10,264 nucleotides of DNA, from the IMG/VR virus record IMGVR_UViG_2534681701_000009, one strand, 5' to 3'. This document shows, piece by piece, positions 1 to 10,264 of this stretch (its first letter is position 1; every line of letters begins with the position of its first letter). Below the pieces are notes generated by a model that saw nothing but the letters and a program-made list of their open reading frames with translations, made no database searches and was not told the origin of the DNA. The stretch comes from a virus (taxonomy: Duplodnaviria > Heunggongvirae > Uroviricota > Caudoviricetes). A program made the position numbers and the translations under genes.

Positions 1-1254
1 ATGCTGGAACAAATGGGCATTGCCGCGAAGCAAGCCTCGTATAAATTAGCGCAACTCTCCAGCCGCGAAAAAAATCGCGTGCTGGAAAAAATCGCCGATG
101 AACTGGAAGCACAAAGCGAAATCATCCTCAACGCTAACGCCCAGGATGTTGCTGACGCGCGAGCCAATGGCCTTAGCGAAGCGATGCTTGACCGTCTGGC
201 ACTGACGCCCGCACGGCTGAAAGGCATTGCCGACGATGTACGTCAGGTGTGCAACCTCGCCGATCCGGTGGGGCAGGTAATCGATGGCGGCGTACTGGAC
301 AGCGGCCTGCGTCTTGAGCGTCGTCGCGTACCGCTGGGGGTTATTGGCGTGATTTATGAAGCGCGCCCGAACGTGACGGTTGATGTCGCTTCGCTGTGCC
401 TGAAAACCGGTAATGCGGTGATCCTGCGCGGTGGCAAAGAAACGTGTCGCACTAACGCTGCAACGGTGGCGGTGATTCAGGACGCCCTGAAATCCTGCGG
501 CTTACCGGCGGGTGCCGTGCAGGCGATTGATAATCCTGACCGTGCGCTGGTCAGTGAAATGCTGCGTATGGATAAATACATCGACATGCTGATCCCGCGT
601 GGTGGCGCTGGTTTGCATAAACTGTGCCGTGAACAGTCGACAATCCCGGTGATCACAGGTGGTATAGGCGTATGCCATATTTACGTTGATGAAAGTGTAG
701 AGATCGCTGAAGCATTAAAAGTGATCGTCAACGCGAAAACTCAGCGTCCGAGCACATGTAATACGGTTGAAACGTTGCTGGTGAATAAAAACATCGCCGA
801 TAGCTTCCTGCCCGCATTAAGCAAACAAATGGCGGAAAGCGGCGTGACATTACACGCAGATGCAGCTGCACTGGCGCAGTTGCAGGCAGGCCCTGCGAAG
901 GTGGTTGCTGTTAAAGCCGAAGAGTATGACGATGAGTTTCTGTCATTAGATTTGAACGTCAAAATCGTCAGCGATCTTGACGATGCCATCGCCCATATTC
1001 GTGAACACGGCACACAACACTCCGATGCGATCCTGACCCGCGATATGCGCAACGCCCAGCGTTTTGTTAACGAAGTGGATTCGTCCGCTGTTTACGTTAA
1101 CGCCTCTACGCGTTTTACCGACGGCGGCCAGTTTGGTCTGGGTGCGGAAGTGGCGGTAAGCACACAAAAACTCCACGCGCGTGGCCCAATGGGGCTGGAA
1201 GCACTGACCACTTACAAGTGGATCGGCATTGGTGATTACACCATTCGTGCGTAA
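1..1254 (+). CDS. proA: gamma-glutamyl phosphate reductase (glutamate-5-semialdehyde dehydrogenase), complete, 417 aa
   Basis: Full-length ORF starting at window base 1 and ending in TAA; the translation matches the E. coli ProA sequence as I recall it; proA sits immediately upstream of thrW in E. coli. Confidence 0.95.
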
Positions 1255-1368
1255 ATAAAACCGGGTGATGCAAAAGTAGCCATTTGATTCACAAGGCCAT
1301 TGACGCATCGCCCGGTTAGTTTTAACCTTGTCCACCGTGATTCACGTTCGTGAACATGTCCTTTCAGG

Positions 1369-1444
1369 GCCGATATAGCTCAGTTGGTAGAGCAGCGCAT
1401 TCGTAATGCGAAGGTCGTAGGTTCGACTCCTATTATCGGCACCA
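1369..1444 (+). tRNA. thrW: tRNA-Thr (anticodon CGU), 76 nt with encoded CCA
   Basis: GCCGATATAGCTCAGTTGGTAGAGCAGCGCATTCGTAATGCGAAGGTCGTAGGTTCGACTCCTATTATCGGCACCA: cloverleaf-compatible acceptor/T-arm pairing, GTTCGA T-loop, anticodon loop TTCGTAA giving anticodon CGT; position after proA fits thrW. Confidence 0.9.
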
Positions 1445-1461
1445 TTCAAACATCTCCCCAA

Positions 1462-1482
1462 GTCTACTAAAGTCTTTCAAAA
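1462..1482. repeat. 21-bp direct repeat copy 1 (GTCTACTAAAGTCTTTCAAAA), candidate integrase arm-type site in attL
   Basis: Near-identical copy at 1525..1545 (2 mismatches), both between the tRNA 3' end and the integrase start. Confidence 0.45.
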
Positions 1483-1524
1483 CCCCTTATAATCCGCGTA
1501 TTAAAGCCCCGCTCGTCTTTTGAC

Positions 1525-1545
1525 GTCTACTAAAGTCCCTCAAAA
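1525..1545. repeat. 21-bp direct repeat copy 2 (GTCTACTAAAGTCCCTCAAAA), candidate integrase arm-type site in attL
   Basis: Matches 1462..1482 at 19 of 21 positions; followed by tandem ATGGGGGTA at 1557..1565 and 1569..1577. Confidence 0.45.
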
Positions 1546-1609
1546 TCTACGGTCAGATGGGGGTACTTATGGGGGTATTTGCTGTTCGGTTTAGTGGAGG
1601 TACCCCCAA

Positions 1610-2824
1610 GTGAAACTCAATGCCCGTCAAATAGACACAGCCAAGCCAAAAGAGAAGGCTTACAAGCTGGCCGATGGTGGCGGTTTGTATCTCTTGGTAA
1701 AACCTAATGGAGGTAAATACTGGCGACTTAAATATCGTGTAGCTGGTAAAGAGAAGCTATTGGCACTAGGTGTTTATCCTGAGGTTACTCTAGCCGATGC
1801 TCGGGCAAAACGTGAAGATGCGAAAAGAGGTATCGCTGGTGGTATCGATCCGATGGAAGCGAAACGAGAGGAAAAGATTGCCCGGGAAACGCAGTTAAAC
1901 AACACCTTCAAAGATATTGCCATTGAGTGGCACAGCAGCAAATTAAAAAAATGGTCTGCTGGTTATGCTTCAGACATCCTCGAAGCCTTCAACAAAGATG
2001 TGTTCCCTTACATTGGCAAAAAAACCATCGCCGAAATCAAACCACTTGAACTTCTGAATGTGCTGCGTCGCATCGAGGGGCGCGGTGCTACAGAAAAAGC
2101 CAAAAAAGTGAGGCAGCGGTGCGGGGAAGTTTTCCGCTATGCAATAGTCACTGGTCGCGCAGAGTATAACCCTGCACCAGACCTTACTAGCGCGATGCAA
2201 GGCCATGAATCTAATCATTACCCTTTCCTTACAGCCAAAGAATTACCTGATTTTTTCAAGGCATTGTCCAGTTACTCAGGAAGCGCATTGGTTGTTATGG
2301 CGGCTCGTCTACTGATTATCACCGGCTTGCGGACTGGCGAACTACGTGGCGCATTATGGGATGAAATTGATTTCAACAAGGCTATCTGGGAGATACCCGC
2401 TTCACGTATGAAAATGCGGCGGACTCATATTGTGCCATTGTCTGAGCAGGCTCTTTCGCTTATTGGGAAGATTAGAGAAATAACAGGCAATTACCCTCTT
2501 ATGTTTCCCGGGCGCAATGATCCAAGGAAAACAATGAGCGAGGCCAGCATAAACCAAGTGTTTAAGCGCATTGGCTACGCTGGACGTGTAACTGGTCATG
2601 GGTTCCGGCACACTATGAGTACGATTTTGCATGAGCAGGGCTATAACACCGCGTGGATAGAAACGCAGCTCGCTCACGTTGATAAGAACTCAATTCGTGG
2701 CACATACAACCATGCGCAATATCTGGATGGAAGGCGGGAGATGCTTCAATGGTATGCCGACTATATGGATTCTCTCGAGCATGGCGGAAATGTGGTGCAT
2801 ATGGTGTTTGAAAAACACGCATGA
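1610..2824 (+). CDS. int: P4-family tyrosine recombinase / integrase, 404 aa, GTG start
   Basis: ORF directly downstream of the tRNA; GGAGG 9 nt upstream of GTG; N-terminus KPKEKAYKLADGGGLYLLVKPNGGKYWRLKYR is typical of P4-type integrases; C-terminal HGFRHT ... RGTYNHAQY carries the recombinase His/Arg/Tyr catalytic motifs. Confidence 0.9.
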   Translation: MKLNARQIDTAKPKEKAYKLADGGGLYLLVKPNGGKYWRLKYRVAGKEKLLALGVYPEVTLADARAKREDAKRGIAGGIDPMEAKREEKIARETQLNNTFKDIAIEWHSSKLKKWSAGYASDILEAFNKDVFPYIGKKTIAEIKPLELLNVLRRIEGRGATEKAKKVRQRCGEVFRYAIVTGRAEYNPAPDLTSAMQGHESNHYPFLTAKELPDFFKALSSYSGSALVVMAARLLIITGLRTGELRGALWDEIDFNKAIWEIPASRMKMRRTHIVPLSEQALSLIGKIREITGNYPLMFPGRNDPRKTMSEASINQVFKRIGYAGRVTGHGFRHTMSTILHEQGYNTAWIETQLAHVDKNSIRGTYNHAQYLDGRREMLQWYADYMDSLEHGGNVVHMVFEKHA

Positions 2825-2967
2825 AACAACTGGACAAGTATACAGAGGTTTACTAAAGTATAGGGGAGTAGATTGATAAAAACTCACAGAGGATTGCTAT
2901 TTAACAGTTAGCCCTGGAGAAGGGCAATCGCTCTTTTATAAACGAAGGTGTATTGAGCCTTCTACGT

Positions 2968-3030
2968 CGCTGACAAAGCGGAATGTTCTTTAACAGGCTT
3001 TGGCGCTGACAAAGCGCAATTGTTCTTTAA
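2968..3030. repeat. two direct repeats of ~26 bp (CGCTGACAAAGCG-G/CAAT-TGTTCTTTAA) in the int-alpA intergenic region
   Basis: Copies at 2968..2993 and 3004..3030; each begins with a small CGCT...AGCG inverted motif; candidate regulator binding sites. Confidence 0.4.
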
Positions 3031-3134
3031 AACTACTGGATGTCACGCCTAATAGCGTGATCCTGCCGAAATGCAGGGTAGCTCTACCCTTGTGGAGCAA
3101 ACAAACCAAAACAATCTGACTATCTTTTATAAAA

Positions 3135-3163
3135 GACCGCAATATGTTTTTCATATTGTGGTC
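3135..3163. promoter_or_regulatory. 12-bp imperfect palindrome with 5-T spacer (GACCGCAATATG TTTTT CATATTGTGGTC), candidate operator or hairpin upstream of alpA
   Basis: 11 of 12 positions are self-complementary; lies ~90 bp upstream of the alpA ATG. Confidence 0.35.
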
Positions 3164-3268
3164 TTTGGCGTATTCGACATTTGACGCAAATAAAACTCTC
3201 GCCATTCGTTGCAGGAGGGAGTTATTGCGTCATTAGTACAGGATATTAATAAATGGCTAATTACAATT

Positions 3269-3277
3269 CATTAATTC
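3269..3277. repeat. IS1 target-site duplication, left copy (CATTAATTC)
   Basis: Identical 9-mer directly flanks the other IS1 end at 4046..4054; 9 bp is the usual IS1 duplication length. Confidence 0.9.
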
Positions 3278-3292
3278 GGTAATGACTCTAAC

Positions 3293-3796
3293 TTATTGAT
3301 AGTGTTTTATGTTCAGATAATGCCCGATGACTTTGTCATGCAGCTCCACCGATTTTGAGAACGACAGCGACTTCCGTCCCAGCCGTGCCAGGTGCTGCCT
3401 CAGATTCAGGTTATGCCGCTCAATTCGCTGCGTATATCGCTTGCTGATTACGTGCAGCTTTCCCTTCAGGCGGGATTCATACAGCGGCCAGCCATCCGTC
3501 ATCCATATCACCACGTCAAAGGGTGACAGCAGGCTCATAAGACGCCCCAGCGTCGCCATAGTGCGTTCACCGAATACGTGCGCAACAACCGTCTTCCGGA
3601 GCCTGTCATACGCGTAAAACAGCCAGCGCTGGCGCGATTTAGCCCCGACATAGCCCCACTGTTCGTCCATTTCCGCGCAGACGATGACGTCACTGCCCGG
3701 CTGTATGCGCGAGGTTACCGACTGCGGCCTGAGTTTTTTAAGTGACGTAAAATCGTGTTGAGGCCAACGCCCATAATGCGGGCTGTTGCCCGGCAT
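3293..3796 (-). CDS. insB: IS1 InsB reading frame (expressed as InsAB' fusion via -1 frameshift), 167 aa as listed
   Basis: Translation ...[96 protein letters not shown]... matches IS1 InsB; overlaps insA as in IS1. Confidence 0.9.
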
Positions 3797-3990
3797 CCAA
3801 CGCCATTCATGGCCATATCAATGATTTTCTGGTGCGTACCGGGTTGAGAAGCAGTGTAAGTGAACTGCAGTTGCCATGTTTTACGGCAGTGAGAGCAGAG
3901 ATAGCGCTGATGTCCGGCAGTGCTTTTGCCGTTACGCACCACCCCGTCAGTAGCTGAACAGGAGGGACAGCTGATAGAAACAGAAGCCAC
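3715..3990 (-). CDS. insA: IS1 InsA (transposition regulator / N-terminal part of InsAB' transposase), 91 aa
   Basis: Translation [43 protein letters not shown]... is the canonical IS1 InsA with its zinc-finger motif. Confidence 0.93.
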
Positions 3991-4045
3991 TGGAGCACCT
4001 CAAAAACACCATCATACACTAAATCAGTAAGTTGGCAGCATCACC

Positions 4046-4054
4046 CATTAATTC
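4046..4054. repeat. IS1 target-site duplication, right copy (CATTAATTC)
   Basis: Identical to 3269..3277. Confidence 0.9.
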
Positions 4055-4232
4055 GTCTCTCTGAAGTTCAAAGGCGAACTGGTTATAGCAAAGCATGGAT
4101 TTATCGTCTTATTAGTCAGGGGAGGTTCCCTAAACAGGTAAAAATTGGAAGTCGGGCAATTGCTTTTGTTGAGTCTGAAATAGATGAATGGATTGAGAAG
4201 TGTATATTAGAATCTAGAGACGAGGTGGCCTG

Positions 4233-4664
4233 ATGGAAAAGAAAAACCGCCCATTACAGGCGGCTAATTCAGATATTCGTGTATCTGATGTTACGCCCCT
4301 TACAAAATCCCTTCAAGCACCAAAGCGCACACCGAAAAAGCATCGTGCCAGAGTCTATATGCTGCGTACTGGTATAGAGGGATGGACAGAAAATGACATT
4401 CTTCGCTACTGCCGTCTGTCTTCTGGTCGTAACTATGCAACAGAGTTAGAACGCCAGCTTGGAATCACTCTGGAGCGTATCGACGAAAAGAATCCTGATG
4501 GTATCGGAACACACCTTCGCTACCGTTTCTCCTGCCGTGGTGATGTTCTGAAAGTGATCACTCATATTAACCATCTTGCGAACATAAATGATCACAACGG
4601 ACTTTCTCAGCAGGAAATTGCCGACATTCTGAAACTCTACCCGGACGCGTTTAACGCCGCCTAA
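4233..4664 (+). CDS. hypothetical protein, 143 aa, basic N-terminus; function unknown
   Basis: ATG overlaps the alpA stop (TGATG); ORF with protein-like composition; no family recognised by eye. Confidence 0.65.
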   Translation: MEKKNRPLQAANSDIRVSDVTPLTKSLQAPKRTPKKHRARVYMLRTGIEGWTENDILRYCRLSSGRNYATELERQLGITLERIDEKNPDGIGTHLRYRFSCRGDVLKVITHINHLANINDHNGLSQQEIADILKLYPDAFNAA

Positions 4665-4676
4665 CGGAGACTGAAA

Positions 4677-5510
4677 ATGAACATCGAAAAAAGCAGATTA
4701 ATTTCTGAGGCCGCCCCTCATCTGAACGCCTCTCTGGGCACAATTAACGGTAATGAATTTGCCGCAATTGTCCCGGTTATTCCTGGTCATATCGGTGGGC
4801 GTGAAACCAATATTGTTAGCGCAAAAGCGTTACACAAAGCGTTGGGCGTGGGAAAAGACTTCTCTACATGGATCACTGATCGCATCTCTGAATATGACTT
4901 CACCATTGGGCACGATTACTCAGTCCATAAAACAATTTCCCCAAATTTGGGGAAAAGCCCGAATGGCGCGGCTTACAGCAAGATAAAGCACTCTGGCAGA
5001 CCCGGCAAAGACTATCTGTTAAGTGTCGGAATGGCGAAAGAACTGGCAATGATCGAACGCAATGATCAGGGTCGCGCTATCCGCCGTTATTTCATCCAGT
5101 GCGAGGAAGAATTACAGCGTAGCGTGCCTGAAATCGCCGCCCGCTATCGTCGCCAGCTAAAAGCCCGTATCAGTGCCGCAAACAACTTTAAGCCAATGTG
5201 CGATGCGCTGAATATGGCCCGTGCCGAGATGGGTAAAACGACGCAGCAACACCACTACACAAACGAGAGCAATATGATTTCTCGTATCGTTCTTGGTGGG
5301 CTAACTGCTAAGCAGTGGGCGCGGATAAATGGCTATTCTGGCGAACCTCGCGACCATATGAACGCAGAACAGCTTGAGCACCTCTCATATCTCGAAAGCA
5401 CCAATATCACGTTAATTGATATGGGCATGGAATATGAGCAGCGCAAAGGAGAACTCACCCGCCTGTCGCAACGCTGGCTCGCTAAGCGTCTGGAGGCGGT
5501 CCATGTTTAA
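4677..5510 (+). CDS. phage antirepressor-like protein (AntA/Rha-type N-terminal region), 277 aa
   Basis: GGAG 8 nt upstream of ATG; motifs KDFSTWITDRISEYDF and LSVGMAKELAMIERNDQGRAIRRYFIQCEEEL resemble AntA/Rha-family antirepressor domains from memory. Confidence 0.7.
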   Translation: MNIEKSRLISEAAPHLNASLGTINGNEFAAIVPVIPGHIGGRETNIVSAKALHKALGVGKDFSTWITDRISEYDFTIGHDYSVHKTISPNLGKSPNGAAYSKIKHSGRPGKDYLLSVGMAKELAMIERNDQGRAIRRYFIQCEEELQRSVPEIAARYRRQLKARISAANNFKPMCDALNMARAEMGKTTQQHHYTNESNMISRIVLGGLTAKQWARINGYSGEPRDHMNAEQLEHLSYLESTNITLIDMGMEYEQRKGELTRLSQRWLAKRLEAVHV

Positions 5511-5685
5511 GCCGACAGGAACACCACAACCTCAAAAACGCTACAAAGATGCCCACGGAGCACTCGTTACTGTCGAAAGCGTGTCTCACAACCGAGTGAC
5601 GTTTTATCGCGACGGGTATCAATCGCCATGCGTACAACCGCTGGCGCGTTTCATGAAGGAGTTCGCGGAGGTTAACAAATGCTAA
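5503..5685 (+). CDS. small hypothetical protein, 60 aa (MFKPTGTPQ...)
   Basis: ATG embedded in the upstream stop (ATGTTTAA) suggests translational coupling; I prefer this start to the longer 5416 start in the ORF track, which overlaps the upstream gene by 95 nt. Confidence 0.5.
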   Translation: MFKPTGTPQPQKRYKDAHGALVTVESVSHNRVTFYRDGYQSPCVQPLARFMKEFAEVNKC

Positions 5686-6746
5686 CCGTCCAGAAGAAGA
5701 CATTTTCACTGGCTGGTATGTCGCCAAAATCCAGTAATATGACGGCAAAGTCAGGCATTAATACAGCAGATACAAGCAAAGTTTATCATTTGCTGGTGGT
5801 CGGAACGGATGCCTTAACCATATCAGAAATCTCGGGCGATGATATTAGCATTGAGAAGGTCAGCGGCTGCGCCAGAAAATTTCTGGTCGTAGATGATGTC
5901 TTCCGCTCGTGTAGTGACTCCACAAAAACATTCGTCCACGCGCGTGACGTTAACGAAATGAGCGCGATGTACTGTGCATCTGGTGCTTCCAATAGCGAGT
6001 TTTCGGAGTCCATAAAAAAGAGCTTGCCGTTATGCGGCAACACGGTTTATGGTTATAAGGCACCTCATAAAACGGGTGCCGGGATTGGCGTCCTGGTAAA
6101 TCGAATGGCGACATATGACGCGCCGAGCGTCTTTTTTTATGTCGTAGGTCTGACTCACCCATTTTTTGGGCGTTGGTGTATAATCCAGCGCCTTTGTCAA
6201 TCAATGGTGGCTCAGGCAGGGGCTTCTTCGGAAGCGCCGGTATCCATTCGAGCCGGTTACGCCAACCCTGTCTGGGCTACCACCAGCGAAATTGGCGTTT
6301 CCGGTGGTAGCGTTACATGCTATCGAATGGAGGCTGCCACATGCTGGCTACTACCCCTACCCAAAAACCGCAATTTATCTGGATTATCGCCGCAGTTCGC
6401 CGCGATTGCCCGACAATTACCGCCAAAATTCATCATATTGCTGCCGAGTCTGAACGCGATGCTCGCCGTTCTCTGGTGCGCGATCACGTCTGCTTTTTTG
6501 CTGGTCGTATCCGCATGGAGGTGGCTCATGATTAAAACCTACGATGTGCATATGGATCCCCTCGAACGCACAAGCCAGATCATCACACTGACAGAAGTGA
6601 TTAACGACATTCTGGTGAGCAACTCTCCCTCACGAGACGAAAGACTGAAGGCGTTACTCGCGATATTGGATCTCGCCGTTCGTGACGTTCATTTCCTGCT
6701 GGAAGGTGGCGAAATGCCAGGAAAAACGGGGGCAACCAATGAATAA
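5679..6746 (+). CDS. uncertain: 355-codon open frame; plausibly a real coupled gene at its 5' end (5679 to ~6116) but no in-frame stop before 6746
   Basis: ATG overlaps the upstream stop (ATGCTAA) with GAGG 7 nt upstream; frame stays open through a terminator-like hairpin, a promoter-like TATAAT, the structured region and the out-of-frame Icd-like ORF. Probably not one protein. Confidence 0.25.
6117..6138 (+). terminator. candidate rho-independent terminator (GACGC-GCCGA-GCGTC followed by T7)
   Basis: 5-bp GC-rich stem, 5-nt loop, immediately followed by TTTTTTT at 6132..6138; lies at the end of the alpA-to-orf60 coupled module. Confidence 0.4.
6150..6184 (+). promoter_or_regulatory. candidate sigma70 promoter, perfect -10 TATAAT at 6179..6184 with TG two bases upstream and an A/T-rich tract before it
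   Basis: GGTGTATAAT; no canonical -35 at 17-bp spacing, so assignment rests on the -10 and context (just downstream of the terminator, upstream of the structured region and icd-like gene). Confidence 0.4.
6199..6335 (+). ncRNA. candidate C4/CI-type antisense immunity RNA with flanking target sites (approximate bounds)
   Basis: 9-bp stem GCTACCACC (6276..6284) / GGTGGTAGC (6303..6311); TCCATTCGA (6243..6251) is complementary to TCGAATGGA (6323..6331), which overlaps the GGAGG ribosome-binding site of the icd-like ORF; a related ATCAATGGTGG motif sits upstream at 6199..6210. Confidence 0.4.
6341..6535 (+). CDS. Icd-like (host cell division inhibitor-like) small protein, 64 aa
   Basis: GGAGG 7 nt upstream of ATG; [22 protein letters not shown]... 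resembles Icd-like proteins of P1/P4-type immunity regions from memory; stop overlaps the next ATG. Confidence 0.55.
   Translation: MLATTPTQKPQFIWIIAAVRRDCPTITAKIHHIAAESERDARRSLVRDHVCFFAGRIRMEVAHD
6528..6746 (+). CDS. small hypothetical protein, 72 aa
   Basis: ATG overlaps the icd-like stop; first of a chain of coupled ORFs. Confidence 0.5.
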   Translation: MIKTYDVHMDPLERTSQIITLTEVINDILVSNSPSRDERLKALLAILDLAVRDVHFLLEGGEMPGKTGATNE

Positions 6747-6933
6747 CTCAATTAATACCCCTCGCCTTACGTCCGCACTTCAATTAATCGAGCAAGCAGC
6801 GGCTGTCCCGGTTGCTGTCAGTCTTTCGGCTGAAGAAATGGACGCTGCTGATGTCGTGGATGCGATTAAAGCGTGCTCATCTTTGGTTAACGATGCCCGT
6901 GACGAGCTGGTAATTCTTGGGGGTGAAAAATGA
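6739..6933 (+). CDS. small hypothetical protein, 64 aa ([10 protein letters not shown]...)
   Basis: Start embedded in upstream stop as ATGAATAA; preferred over the 6682 start in the ORF track. Confidence 0.5.
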   Translation: MNNSINTPRLTSALQLIEQAAAVPVAVSLSAEEMDAADVVDAIKACSSLVNDARDELVILGGEK

Positions 6934-7193
6934 ATATCAACTTAATTTATCGTCATCCGTGTGAGCTGGAAATTGAATCATTGCTGAGCCGTGAAGAGCC
7001 ATATCCAGACACATTCACTCTTGCAGATCGCACGACTGAACGGCTTACCAGAGCGCGCACAGGTCTGGTTCATGTGATGAATGAGATTCTTCCATCGGTG
7101 GGAGGGGAACAGGCGACAGTAATCACTAGCTGGCTACAAAAAGTTACCTCTCTGATAGATATCAGTTTAATCGATGCGGAGAGTGCGAAATGA
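6930..7193 (+). CDS. small hypothetical protein, 87 aa
   Basis: ATGA start/stop overlap with upstream ORF. Confidence 0.55.
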   Translation: MNINLIYRHPCELEIESLLSREEPYPDTFTLADRTTERLTRARTGLVHVMNEILPSVGGEQATVITSWLQKVTSLIDISLIDAESAK

Positions 7194-7411
7194 CCAACAT
7201 CCAGCTCATTGAAGCACAATGTCGCATCGAACAGGTTCAGACTGTTTTAGGGTTCTGGCTTGAAGGGGCCAGCCCCAGCAACAGAGACAAGTTAATGATT
7301 GGCGCGGTTATGTCACTGCTCAATGGCGTACCAGAAGCTATTCAGGAAGCGGACGAATTGTTGGGCAAATATGAGTTACAGAATCATTCAGGCGAGGCGA
7401 AACATGAATAA
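7190..7411 (+). CDS. small hypothetical protein, 73 aa
   Basis: ATGA start/stop overlap with upstream ORF. Confidence 0.55.
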   Translation: MTNIQLIEAQCRIEQVQTVLGFWLEGASPSNRDKLMIGAVMSLLNGVPEAIQEADELLGKYELQNHSGEAKHE

Positions 7412-8006
7412 TTTCTTAACTTTCCATGCAGAAGCAACGCCTGACGGCGTAAACATCATGTACCGCAGCAACGATGGCATGACAGAACGCGTTGAGACCG
7501 TCTCATATATTGATGCCGTAAATCGTCTGGATGCCGGGGATTATGACGATAAACCAGATGAAGGTATGTCAATACATCTCGCTATTGCCGATGGCGGCAA
7601 CCAGGGATATTTCGATTACACATCACAGCATAACGTCATTATGTGGAGATGGCTGATCGCAACAGTATTCATGCTGGAAATGAGAGAGGAAAACGGTACT
7701 GTCAGCATCATTGATGATACTGGCAATCCTTCCGAAGTGGCTGTTTATTCCAACGGCATCGTCGCCATGCCGCTGTATCCAGTAGCAGAGCGCCTCGCTA
7801 TGGCAAACAACATTGAGGGCGCGATGATAGAACGTTTTGGCATCGAGTCTGGCACAGAACGCGCCATCATTTTCTACAGAGCCATGATGGATGTGGAACA
7901 AGGAGCACTGACTCCATTTGGTCGTGAAACGCTTGCTGAACTTCACAACAGCTTTATAGCTGAACTGAATGAAAACGGCATGCCAGCGGAACCAGTGACG
8001 CACTGA
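7404..8006 (+). CDS. hypothetical protein, 200 aa (MNNFLTFHAEATPDG...)
   Basis: Start embedded in upstream stop as ATGAATAA, the same 8-nt junction as at 6739; preferred over the 7299 start, which would overlap the upstream ORF by 113 nt. Confidence 0.65.
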   Translation: MNNFLTFHAEATPDGVNIMYRSNDGMTERVETVSYIDAVNRLDAGDYDDKPDEGMSIHLAIADGGNQGYFDYTSQHNVIMWRWLIATVFMLEMREENGTVSIIDDTGNPSEVAVYSNGIVAMPLYPVAERLAMANNIEGAMIERFGIESGTERAIIFYRAMMDVEQGALTPFGRETLAELHNSFIAELNENGMPAEPVTH

Positions 8007-8016
8007 GGATGGAGCC

Positions 8017-8358
8017 ATGATTACTAAAAATTTCCGACTGAATGCGCTGGCAAATAAGTATGCGTCGGCACTGTATAACCACATTACCTCCACCAGCGGC
8101 GGGGACTATTTCATGGTTGATGCGGACGGCGAGGCCGTCCGTGTGGAAATCGTCAATGGAGTAAAAGGCGTTCGCAGCCTGATCGATAGCTACACACTGG
8201 CAGCCATGAAAGTGTTCTACCCGCAGTGGGAAACCGTGGGGATCGAGCTTCTTGAACGTTGCGTCACTAAGGACGGATTGACTGACGTCGGGCGTGAGAT
8301 ATGGCAAAGCATGGTTAATGACATGGGCGCAACTGTAGCGGGAGGTTCTCATGCGTGA
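8017..8358 (+). CDS. hypothetical protein, 113 aa
   Basis: GAGGATGGAG ribosome-binding site directly upstream of ATG; no family recognised. Confidence 0.65.
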   Translation: MITKNFRLNALANKYASALYNHITSTSGGDYFMVDADGEAVRVEIVNGVKGVRSLIDSYTLAAMKVFYPQWETVGIELLERCVTKDGLTDVGREIWQSMVNDMGATVAGGSHA

Positions 8359-8722
8359 AAATGCAGAAATGGCGCTTAGCTCCGCAATCGGAGAGCAGGT
8401 GGCAAAGATTGCTGGTGCTGTGTGGATTCATAACCTTCATTCTACTGGTGAAGAGAAAATGGTAATTCAGACGCCAGAGGGACGCACCATTACTACATCT
8501 CTGAAGCCGTCAGATGTTTGTGATCTGATTTGCGCATTCATGTACCCAGCAATGAGGACTGTCCACGGCGATAAGTGGAAACTTGCGACAACCGCTGAAT
8601 TTGATATGTGGCTAAACAATGATGGCATGCTGACTGATTACGGAATAACCAAGTGGCAGATGCTGGTTAGCCATATCGCAAACGCTATAGACCACGTGGG
8701 GTACGGTGATGCGAAACATTGA
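8351..8722 (+). CDS. hypothetical protein, 123 aa
   Basis: ATG overlaps upstream stop (ATGCGTGA); no family recognised. Confidence 0.65.
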   Translation: MRENAEMALSSAIGEQVAKIAGAVWIHNLHSTGEEKMVIQTPEGRTITTSLKPSDVCDLICAFMYPAMRTVHGDKWKLATTAEFDMWLNNDGMLTDYGITKWQMLVSHIANAIDHVGYGDAKH

Positions 8723-9336
8723 TCTTATCCGTCAGGTTATCAGTGCGTCTGAAAACAACTGGCCTCATGTGCTGGGCTGCCTGAACATAAATGTCCCTGA
8801 CTCTCCGCGCCGTCATGCTCCCTGCCCTGCATGTGGGGGCAAAGATCGATTCCGGTTCGATGACAACGGGCGCGGTAGCTTCATCTGTAATCAGTGCGGC
8901 GCTGGTGATGGGCTGGATTTAATTAAACGCGTAAATAACTGCGACACAACAGAGGCGGCGCTTCTTGCCGCTGATGTTCTGGGTATTGATTACCGGACAA
9001 CGGAAACACCAGAAGCCACCAGCCAGAAACGGGAACAACTGGAAACCGAGCGCCAGCGACGCGAACAGGAGCGCCTGAAAAGGGCAGAGAAGGACGAACA
9101 ACAAAGACGGGATACGTTTTCCCGTCAGTTTGATGACATGCGCAGAAAGGCTGTAAACGGCAAATCTGATTATCTGGTTGCGAAAGGGGTAGGTGATTTT
9201 ACATTCCCCGTGTTGCCCGATGGATCTCTGTTGCTGGCGCTGGTGGATAAATCCGGCGCAGTAACAGCAGCACAGACTATTACCTCACATGGTGAAAAAA
9301 GACTCCTGACAGGTTCAGCAAAGCGGGGGGCATATC
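8706..9336 (+). pseudogene. P4 alpha-type DNA primase, N-terminal ~210 codons only (zinc-binding domain and start of TOPRIM), truncated by IS186
   Basis: CPACGGKDRFRFDDNGRGSFICNQCGAGDGLDL is a primase zinc-ribbon motif; P4-type primase/helicases are ~700-800 aa, whereas this frame terminates a few codons inside IS186. Confidence 0.8.
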
Positions 9337-10264
9337 CATAAGCGCTAACTTAAGGGTTGTGGTATTACGCCTGATATGATTTAACGTGCCGATGAATTAC
9401 TCTCACGATAACTGGTCAGCAATTCTGGCCCATATTGGTAAGCCCGAAGAACTGGATACTTCGGCACGTAATGCCGGGGCTCTAACCCGCCGCCGCGAAA
9501 TTCGTGATGCTGCAACTCTGCTACGTCTGGGGCTGGCTTACGGCCCCGGGGGGATGTCATTACGTGAAGTCACTGCATGGGCTCAGCTCCATGACGTTGC
9601 AACATTATCTGACGTGGCTCTCCTGAAGCGGCTGCGGAATGCCGCCGACTGGTTTGGCATACTTGCCGCACAAACACTTGCTGTACGCGCCGCAGTTACG
9701 GGTTGTACAAGCGGAAAGAGATTGCGTCTTGTCGATGGAACAGCAATCAGTGCGCCCGGGGGCGGCAGCGCTGAATGGCGACTACATATGGGATATGATC
9801 CTCATACCTGTCAGTTCACTGATTTTGAGCTAACCGACAGCAGAGACGCTGAACGGCTGGACCGATTTGCGCAAACGGCAGACGAGATACGCATTGCTGA
9901 CCGGGGATTCGGTTCGCGTCCCGAATGTATCCGCTCACTTGCTTTTGGAGAAGCTGATTATATCGTCCGGGTTCACTGGCGAGGATTGCGCTGGTTAACT
10001 GCAGAAGGAATGCGCTTTGACATGATGGGTTTTCTGCGCGGGCTGGATTGCGGTAAGAACGGTGAAACCACTGTAATGATAGGCAATTCAGGTAATAAAA
10101 AAGCCGGAGCTCCCTTTCCGGCACGTCTCATTGCCGTATCACTTCCTCCCGAAAAAGCATTAATCAGTAAAACCCGACTGCTCAGCGAGAATCGTCGAAA
10201 AGGACGAGTAGTTCAGGCGGAAACGCTGGAAGCAGCGGGCCATGTGCTATTGCTAACATCATTA
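9337..10264 (+). mobile_element. IS186 (IS4 family), left end and first 928 bp; continues beyond window
   Basis: Begins CATAAGCGCTAACTTAAGGGTTG (IS186 terminal repeat as I recall it), inserted next to a GGGGGG run; contains the IS186 transposase N-terminus. Confidence 0.85.
9392..10264 (+). CDS. insL: IS186 transposase, N-terminal 291 codons; partial, open to the window end (not in the ORF track because no stop is reached)
   Basis: Translation MNYSHDNWSAILAHIGKPEELDTSARNAGALTRRREIRDAATLLRLGLAYGPGG... matches IS186 transposase from memory; frame is open for exactly 291 codons to base 10264. Confidence 0.85.
   Translation, partial: MNYSHDNWSAILAHIGKPEELDTSARNAGALTRRREIRDAATLLRLGLAYGPGGMSLREVTAWAQLHDVATLSDVALLKRLRNAADWFGILAAQTLAVRAAVTGCTSGKRLRLVDGTAISAPGGGSAEWRLHMGYDPHTCQFTDFELTDSRDAERLDRFAQTADEIRIADRGFGSRPECIRSLAFGEADYIVRVHWRGLRWLTAEGMRFDMMGFLRGLDCGKNGETTVMIGNSGNKKAGAPFPARLIAVSLPPEKALISKTRLLSENRRKGRVVQAETLEAAGHVLLLTSL

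What the first reader, a model, noticed from the sequence alone, without database searches (positions are those of the whole stretch)
8706..10264. IS186 truncates the element's primase gene after the zinc-binding domain
The primase frame carries a zinc-ribbon and the beginning of a TOPRIM-like region, then ends a few codons inside IS186, whose terminus begins at 9337 next to a G6 run (IS186 prefers G/C-rich targets). Together with the IS1 hit in alpA, two core functions (regulation/excision and replication) are disrupted, so the element is probably a defective, immobilised remnant whose remaining genes persist in the host.
Basis: partly seen in the sequence, partly recalled or inferred. Interest (0 to 1): 0.5.

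Follow-up and report, generated by a model that had tools for sequence, protein, structure and literature searches.

The report
IS186 splits a satellite island's primase
A common E. coli jumping gene (IS186) has landed in the DNA-primase gene of a phage-dependent chromosomal island next to the thrW tRNA gene, and together with an IS1 in the island's master regulator alpA it has very probably disabled the island: an ordinary decay event, though the same nucleotide has been hit more than once.

Summary
Window 9337-10264 matches the left end of E. coli K-12 IS186A at 928 of 928 bases. It interrupts a gene that is an intact 918-aa Zn-ribbon/TOPRIM/DUF927 primase-helicase in hundreds of complete E. 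coli genomes. The break falls after codon 209, and the frame ends GAY-Pro-TAA inside the IS186 inverted repeat. The fragment keeps the zinc ribbon (residues 34-69) but none of the Toprim domain (221-318).

The host element is an EcCIMP1-family phage-inducible chromosomal island (PICI) at thrW, about 97% identical to the published one. Its alpA, shown experimentally to be needed for excision, is cut after codon 8 by IS1 with a 9-bp duplication.

The window stops inside IS186 because the draft contig ends there. However, an exact 713-aa protein, "M+GAYHAIN...", exists in public assemblies. That is the product expected if the rest of the gene follows the IS after a 10-bp duplication (GGGGCATATC), with the IS end CTTATG supplying an in-frame ATG.

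Two other backgrounds carry IS186 at the same nucleotide in the opposite orientation, so the site is a recurrent target although only half-canonical. None of 5,426 complete genomes has the insertion. This is ordinary IS-mediated decay of a known island, of low interest.

The parts
1369..1444 (+). tRNA-Thr(CGT), thrW. The island's attL lies in its 3' part, because identity with other islands begins at 1399.
   Evidence: ARAGORN; blastn against LS45 starts at 1399
1610..2824 (+). Island integrase, 404 aa, intact.
   Evidence: ORF list; PHROG integrase E=5e-77; same length as the annotated integrases in LS45, O26 and MP1
3253..3277 (+). First 8 codons (plus 1 base) of alpA, cut off by IS1.
   Evidence: Alignment to intact alpA at L001 7680-7883
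3278..4045 (-). IS1, 768 bp, flanked by the 9-bp duplication CATTAATTC (3269-3277 and 4046-4054).
   Evidence: DDE_Tnp_IS1 product listed
4046..4233 (+). Remainder of alpA, with its AlpA/HTH domain but without its own start codon.
8709..9341 (+). Truncated primase ORF: 209 native codons, then Pro and a TAA stop. It contains the Zn ribbon and the linker/N-subdomain only.
   Evidence: the exact product is found on 22 draft contigs
9327..9336 (.). Left copy of the inferred 10-bp target duplication GGGGCATATC. The G6 run is at 9325-9330.
   Evidence: Inferred from the exact 713-aa product MGAYH... and from the geometry of K-12 IS186A and the RS571 tagH insertion
9337..10264 (+). IS186 left end, 928 of about 1339 bp. 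The 23-bp inverted repeat is at 9337-9359. It is cut by the end of the window, which is the contig end.
   Evidence: 928/928 identity to K-12 IS186A; the window is identical to AQET01000018.1 over all 10,264 bases, and that contig ends 1 base beyond the window
9392..10264 (+). insL transposase gene, first 291 codons, co-directional with the primase.
   Evidence: Pfam DDE_Tnp_1; start offset equals that of K-12 insL1

Best explanation
An IS186 copy identical to the K-12 element transposed into the primase-helicase gene of an EcCIMP1-family PICI integrated at thrW. The DDE transposase cut a G-rich site (GG|GGGGCATATC|AC) with a 10-bp stagger and inserted after codon 209. The IS terminus CATAAG puts a TAA stop one codon into the IS. 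The cell can therefore make only a 210-aa fragment with the zinc ribbon and linker, lacking the TOPRIM catalytic centre and the DUF927 helicase-like domain. The rest of the gene is still present beyond the IS, and the other IS terminus (CTTATG) happens to give it an in-frame ATG. A ribbon-less fragment with no obvious ribosome-binding site or promoter is unlikely to prime DNA synthesis. In the same lineage IS1 cut alpA, the activator that PICIs need for excision, after codon 8. The island is therefore most likely unable to be induced, to excise or to replicate when a helper phage grows, and it persists as a fixed chromosomal passenger. Shown here: IS identity, position, truncation, the IS1 hit and the family of the island. 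Inferred: the duplication and retained remainder (from a protein record, not DNA of the same genome), and the loss of function.
For: - **IS identity.** 928/928 identity to K-12 IS186A, including the 23-bp inverted repeat.
- **Intact gene elsewhere.** Intact 918-aa homologues are 100% identical up to window 9336 in 12 listed complete genomes. The 5.3-kb module is present at >=80% cover in 430 of 5,426 complete genomes.
- **Domain map.** Zn ribbon 34-69, Toprim_3 221-318, DUF927 365-643; the break is after residue 209.
- **Junction is reproducible.** The same junction occurs in nine independently assembled loci from NCBI and Logan.
- **Right junction product.** The exact 713-aa product M+GAYHAIN... 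is present on 4 NCBI contigs, the longest 97 kb. The products expected for 7-bp or 13-bp duplications are absent. Codon 206 of the intact gene is CGG, so this M cannot be a native start.
- **Duplication geometry.** The 10-bp GG+N6+CC geometry is seen at K-12 IS186A and at the RS571 tagH insertion.
- **Known IS186 behaviour.** IS186 targets GGGG(N6/7)CCCC, hits some sites repeatedly and inserts in either orientation (PMC5009759; PMC3045373).
- **IS1 in alpA**.
Against: - The window and every contig that carries the junction end inside or at IS186. The right IS end, the duplication and the distal gene were therefore never seen as DNA from the same genome.
- The target is only half-canonical: its right half is TCAC, not CCCC.
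- No complete genome carries the insertion, so there is no finished assembly to confirm it.
- Loss of function was not tested. The integrase is intact, and the alpA coding remainder and the primase remainder are both still present.
Confidence: 0.88

Rival explanations
1. IS186-mediated rearrangement: the IS186 copy at 9337 marks a deletion or inversion endpoint (recombination between IS186 copies), so the distal primase and the rest of the island are gone or elsewhere in this genome.
For: The window and all junction contigs stop in IS186. IS-IS recombination is frequent in E. coli (PMC5009759). The 713-aa record cannot be tied to the same assembly.
Against: The product predicted from a simple insertion with a 10-bp duplication exists exactly, on 4 NCBI contigs, while the 7-bp and 13-bp alternatives do not. 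A GTG243-start remainder with the same backbone is on 5 further contigs. The number and source type of these contigs fit the multi-isolate P0298942 draft series named.
Confidence: 0.07
2. Assembly artefact: the primase/IS186 join is a chimeric contig made at a repeat, and the gene is really intact.
For: IS186 is multi-copy (median 3 places per genome that has it), and the contig ends inside it.
Against: The join falls exactly at the IS terminus. It recurs in at least nine loci from different assemblers and runs. The lineage also shares the IS1 marker, and a matching right-junction product exists.
Confidence: 0.02
3. Split but functional: the two ORFs created by the IS (the Zn-ribbon fragment and the ATG-restarted TOPRIM/DUF927 fragment) are both expressed and cooperate in trans, so replication is attenuated rather than abolished.
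For: There is an in-frame ATG at the IS end. insL is co-directional, so read-through transcription is conceivable. From my own knowledge, untested here: zinc-binding domains of T7 gp4 and DnaG can act in trans on a neighbouring subunit.
Against: There is no Shine-Dalgarno-like sequence before the ATG (…GTTAGCGCTT-ATG) and no promoter-like site in IS186 by consensus scan. The fragments are separated by 1.3 kb. alpA is broken as well, so the operon is probably not induced.
Confidence: 0.04

Closest known systems
IS186 insertion hot spots in E. coli (lon promoter; fimA, menC; SaiSree 2001 as cited in PMC3045373; Lee et al. 2016, PMC5009759)
   Same: It is the same element. The target is G-rich, the duplication is 10 bp in the GG+N6+CC register, and the same nucleotide is reused in both orientations.
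   Different: The site is only half-canonical (GGGG-GGCATA-TCAC). It lies in a mobile island rather than the core genome, and it is absent from all 5,426 complete genomes searched.
EcCIMP1, the PICI of E. coli MP1 mobilised by the P22-like phage Kapi1 (PMC11773190)
   Same: It has the same integration site (proA-thrW), the same gene order (int, alpA, antirepressor, DUF4222, Ash..., 918-aa primase) and about 97% nucleotide identity. The target site is identical in MP1.
   Different: The window's copy carries IS1 in alpA and IS186 in the primase. Its distal part (ejection-protein genes, PerC) lies outside the window.
Primase-helicases with an N-terminal zinc ribbon plus TOPRIM (P4 alpha and T7 gp4 type; Pfam Zn_Ribbon_Prim + Toprim_3; PHROG 1139 'DNA primase')
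   Same: The intact homologue has the zinc ribbon, Toprim and a C-terminal helicase-like DUF927 domain, and matches PHROG 1139 end to end (E=1e-178).
   Different: The window's ORF keeps only the ribbon and linker. No biochemical data exist for this protein.
AlpA-controlled excision of cryptic P4-like elements and Gram-negative PICIs
   Same: alpA sits immediately downstream of int, as in those elements, and is required for excision in EcCIMP1.
   Different: Here alpA has lost its first 8 codons and its promoter-proximal context to IS1.

Membership tests
IS186 (IS4 family) | Terminal inverted repeat CATAAGCGCTAACTTAAGGGTTG (23 bp) | tested here: met
   Present at 9337-9359 and identical to both ends of K-12 IS186A.
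IS186 (IS4 family) | Near-identity to a reference copy | tested here: met
   928/928 identity to the annotated IS186A of MG1655.
IS186 (IS4 family) | DDE transposase InsL | tested here: met
   291 codons from 9392 match Pfam DDE_Tnp_1, E=1.6e-9. The gene is cut by the window end.
IS186 (IS4 family) | Full-length element with a right inverted repeat | not testable with these tools
   The window and every contig carrying the junction end inside IS186.
IS186 (IS4 family) | 10-bp target duplication | tested here: met
   Indirect evidence only. The exact 713-aa product MGAYH..., which needs ATG + GGGGCATATC, is in the collection, while the 7-bp and 13-bp products are not. It was not seen as DNA from the same genome.
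IS186 (IS4 family) | Target motif GGGG(N6/N7)CCCC | tested here: not met
   The site reads GGGG-GGCATA-TCAC: the left half is perfect and the right half is 2 of 4. Lee et al. saw 7 of 59 sites deviating by one or two bases, so this lowers typicality, not identity.
Zn-ribbon/TOPRIM primase-helicase | Primase-type zinc ribbon (CxxC...CxxC) | tested here: met
   Pfam Zn_Ribbon_Prim, E=8.5e-16, at residues 35-70 of the GTG-start translation (34-69 in ATG numbering).
Zn-ribbon/TOPRIM primase-helicase | TOPRIM catalytic domain | tested here: not met
   Absent from the window's ORF. Present at 221-318 of intact homologues and in the 713-aa remainder.
Zn-ribbon/TOPRIM primase-helicase | C-terminal helicase-like domain (DUF927) | tested here: not met
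   Not in the window. Present at 365-643 of intact homologues.
PICI, EcCIMP1 type | Integrase next to a specific att site, with alpA downstream in the same orientation, then a primase | tested here: met
   The order is thrW, int, alpA (IS1-disrupted)..., primase (IS186-disrupted).
PICI, EcCIMP1 type | Sequence relatedness to the described island | tested here: met
   97.1-97.8% nucleotide identity to MP1 EcCIMP1 over 1-9336, excluding the insertion sequences.
PICI, EcCIMP1 type | No capsid, tail or lysis genes; size about 20 kb | tested here: inconclusive
   This holds for the 9 kb in the window. The distal half is seen only in relatives.
PICI, EcCIMP1 type | Helper-phage-induced excision, replication and packaging | not testable with these tools
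   Experimental. Shown for MP1 in PMC11773190 and predicted to be lost here.

The most novel reading that the evidence does not exclude
The primase site could be a genuine, sequence-programmed IS186 hot spot in a widespread PICI family. IS186's own ends (TAA in one repeat, ATG in the other, 10-bp duplication) convert one ORF cleanly into a ribbon fragment plus a restartable TOPRIM/helicase fragment. Recurrent insertion would then act as a selectable, possibly reversible, attenuator of satellite replication rather than random decay.
Probability: 0.05. Interest if true: 0.45.

Novelty: new member of a known kind. Interest (0 to 1): 0.2.

Why it matters
It matters little beyond annotation. It shows how a recently described E. 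coli phage satellite (EcCIMP1 family) is disabled in one lineage by two insertion sequences. It also adds one natural, recurrently used and non-canonical target to the known IS186 hot spots. For curators, the 210-aa 'zinc-binding domain of primase-helicase family protein' deposited for the P0298942 strains is a pseudogene fragment. For IS186 biology, a half-site target used at the same nucleotide in both orientations is a small test case for what the transposase really reads.

Tried and rejected
- **Complete genomes.** I looked for the junction in 5,426 complete E. coli genomes: left junction as in the window, left junction in the opposite orientation and right junction. None has it.
- **Pattern scans.** Exact-pattern scans for the right junction in JGI metagenome contigs and in GTDB species representatives gave 0 hits.
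- **Guessing the remainder product.** Eight guesses on the LS45 and P0001 backbones failed. A consensus backbone then gave one exact hit, P0150. Guesses for contig-edge partial products (GSTLKLALM..., TTTLKLALM... and similar) all failed.
- **attR.** A search for a second thrW core copy in three loci found none in L001 or L012. In MP1 only a degenerate copy with an integrase remnant was found.
- **IS186 signals.** A promoter/terminator consensus scan of IS186 was uninformative.
- **Papers not held.** The supplement of Lee et al. and the SaiSree 2001 paper are not in the library.
- **Rejected ideas.** The downstream P22-like genes are not a separate prophage remnant, because they travel with the module at a second integration site. 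The element is not P4-like, because the window and the relatives' annotations list no psu, delta or sid genes and the element matches a described PICI.

Full report
**What is at the coordinates.** The window holds proA (1-1254), thrW (tRNA-Thr CGT, 1369-1444) and a 404-aa integrase (1610-2824). A rightward operon follows, ending in an ORF from 8709 (ATG; GTG at 8706) to 9341. That ORF's only Pfam match above the curated cut-off is the primase-helicase zinc ribbon, E=8.5e-16. From 9337 to the window end the sequence is identical, 928 of 928 bases, to IS186A of E. coli K-12 MG1655, counted from its CATAAG terminus. It includes the 23-bp perfect terminal inverted repeat and the first 291 codons of insL. 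The IS186 call is therefore certain.

**What was interrupted.** Megablast against 5,426 complete E. coli genomes matches window 8351-9336 at 100% identity in a dozen genomes and stops exactly at 9336. In those genomes the gene is an intact 918-aa 'TOPRIM and DUF927 domain-containing protein'. Its Pfam map is Zn_Ribbon_Prim 34-69, Toprim_3 221-318 and DUF927 365-643, and it matches PHROG 1139 'DNA primase' end to end.
- The IS sits after codon 209 plus one base.
- The intact sequence continues ...GGGGGGCATATC|ACGCCATAAAC..., encoding GAY-HAINAPETTQSILIAEG. The TOPRIM glutamate is thus about 16 codons beyond the break.
- In the window the frame reads GAY-Pro-TAA, with the stop inside the IS repeat.

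**Where the window comes from, and its limits.** The exact 210-aa product is encoded on 22 public contigs. One of them, AQET01000018.1, is from the multi-isolate draft series that also includes strains named E. coli P0298942.x. It is identical to the window over all 10,264 bases and ends one base later. The window therefore ends where the assembly broke inside a multi-copy IS. No contig carrying the junction extends through IS186. None of the complete genomes has the left junction in either orientation or the right junction.

**The other side of the IS.** IS186 ends in ...CTTATG. K-12 IS186A (GCGG[GGATCACTCC]CCGCC) and an insertion in tagH of strain RS571 (CCGG[GGAGATATCC]CCCA) both show a 10-bp duplication made of GG+N6+CC.
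- Applied here, the right junction would read CTTATG|GGGGCATATC|ACGCC. That places the terminal ATG in frame with the rest of the primase.
- I built that predicted product on several natural backbones and looked each up by exact sequence.
- M+GAYHAIN... (713 aa) on the commonest backbone is in the collection, on four NCBI contigs up to 97 kb.
- The products expected from 7-bp or 13-bp duplications on the same backbone are absent.
- Codon 206 of the intact gene is CGG, so this methionine cannot be a native start.
- A remainder starting at GTG243 (676 aa) is on five more contigs.
- This is indirect evidence. The contigs could not be fetched and cannot be tied to the window's genome. Still, it argues strongly for a simple insertion with a 10-bp duplication and a retained distal gene.
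- Pattern scans of metagenome and species-representative collections found nothing.

**A recurrent target.** Two Logan contigs encode the same 210-aa product but read AACCAT, not TGGTAT, after the 23-bp repeat. IS186 therefore sits at the same nucleotide in the opposite orientation.
- L003 is a different island backbone. It has a 439-aa integrase beside yicC, is 95.6% identical over the regulatory genes, lacks the 113-aa and 123-aa genes, and has two synonymous SNPs in the primase fragment.
- L010 has the thrW-type gene set and 13 SNPs, and it differs from L003 at position 9317.
- All copies in the window's orientation that reach far enough upstream also carry the IS1 end (L004-L009), so they look like one clone.
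- That makes at least two, probably three, independent insertions.
- This is known IS186 behaviour. Lee et al. found a GGGG(N6/N7)CCCC target, repeated hits at single sites and both orientations (PMC5009759). The lon-promoter site is likewise hit at one position in either orientation (PMC3045373).
- The primase site is only half-canonical: GGGG-GGCATA-TCAC. Four intact islands contain no canonical site and 59-79 equally relaxed ones each. Why this one is reused is not explained.

**What the element is.** The module from int and alpA through the antirepressor, DUF4222 and Ash genes to the primase is found at >=80% cover in 430 complete genomes. It matches EcCIMP1, the PICI of E. coli MP1 described by Pick et al. 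(PMC11773190), which lies between proA/thrW and yagU and is mobilised by the P22-like phage Kapi1.
- I fetched MP1. Gene order is the same and nucleotide identity to the window is 97.1-97.8% outside the insertion sequences. The IS186 target is identical there.
- In intact islands the primase is followed by P22-like ejection-protein genes and a PerC-family gene. This is also true at the yicC site, so these genes belong to the island.

**The second hit.** A 768-bp IS1 (3278-4045) flanked by the 9-bp duplication CATTAATTC lies after codon 8 of alpA. In EcCIMP1 the canonical alpA was shown to be required for excision and circularisation.

**Mechanism and consequence.**
- Shown: two insertion sequences interrupt alpA and the primase, and the integrase ORF is intact.
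- Inferred: without AlpA the island is not induced or excised when a helper grows. Without a primase joined to its zinc ribbon it cannot replicate. It therefore stays as a fixed passenger whose other genes persist.
- The ATG-restarted, ribbon-less TOPRIM/DUF927 ORF has no obvious ribosome-binding site. A consensus scan found no promoter-like site in IS186.
- I give a functional split primase about 4%.
- Rivals are an IS186-mediated deletion or inversion rather than a simple insertion (about 7%) and an assembly chimera (about 2%).

**Verdict.** The finding is correct and well read. It is an ordinary case of insertion sequences degrading a mobile island of a recently described kind. The only mildly unusual points are the reuse of a half-canonical IS186 target at the same nucleotide and the tidy stop/restart geometry created by the IS ends. 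Interest is 0.2, and the novelty class is a new member of a known kind.

Noticed in passing
window 3253-4233: A 768-bp IS1 (3278-4045, insB on the minus strand) with a 9-bp duplication CATTAATTC lies after codon 8 of alpA. The same IS1 end is on Logan contig L009, so IS1 and IS186 mark one lineage.
   Followed up: yes
L003 10617-10657 and L010 2148-2188: IS186 sits at the identical nucleotide of the primase gene in the opposite orientation, in two other sequence backgrounds. The site is a recurrent target although its right half-site is TCAC rather than CCCC.
   Followed up: partly
window 5483-5532 and 6987-7216: The 29 differences from the LS45 island cluster in two patches, and there are none after 7697. 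This looks like short recombination tracts between island variants.
   Followed up: no
L003 3594-10633; L013 9252-18355: The same alpA-to-primase module occurs behind a different integrase (439 aa as called in L003; annotated as 419 aa in L013), next to yicC. There it lacks the 113-aa and 123-aa genes that lie at window 8017-8722. The integrases of this island family are exchangeable.
   Followed up: partly
L012 17887-22545; L013 19119-22690; L015 13481-18649: Intact islands carry P22-like DNA-ejection/injection protein genes (one annotated as a lytic transglycosylase) directly downstream of the primase, at both integration sites. A satellite that encodes its own ejection proteins deserves a closer look.
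   Followed up: partly
hits H53, H54, H57, H58: In some islands with the same upstream genes, a DUF5906 protein replaces the TOPRIM/DUF927 primase, which suggests replication-module swapping.
   Followed up: no
protein P0145: This is another 210-aa truncated allele of the same primase, ending ...GEKSEPPRVSWRVFYL with a break near codon 197, on a 66.7-kb contig. It has a different junction that I did not identify. The cluster of N-terminal fragments has 256 members.
   Followed up: no
L013 14510-14773 (homologue of window 6930-7193): RefSeq names this 87-aa island protein 'nicotinic acetylcholine receptor subunit beta', which is evidently a propagated annotation error.
   Followed up: no
L014 1226-2565 (E. 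coli RS571 tagH): IS186/IS421 splits the type VI secretion FHA gene tagH at a canonical GGGG-AGATAT-CCCC site with a 10-bp duplication. I used it as a geometry reference.
   Followed up: yes
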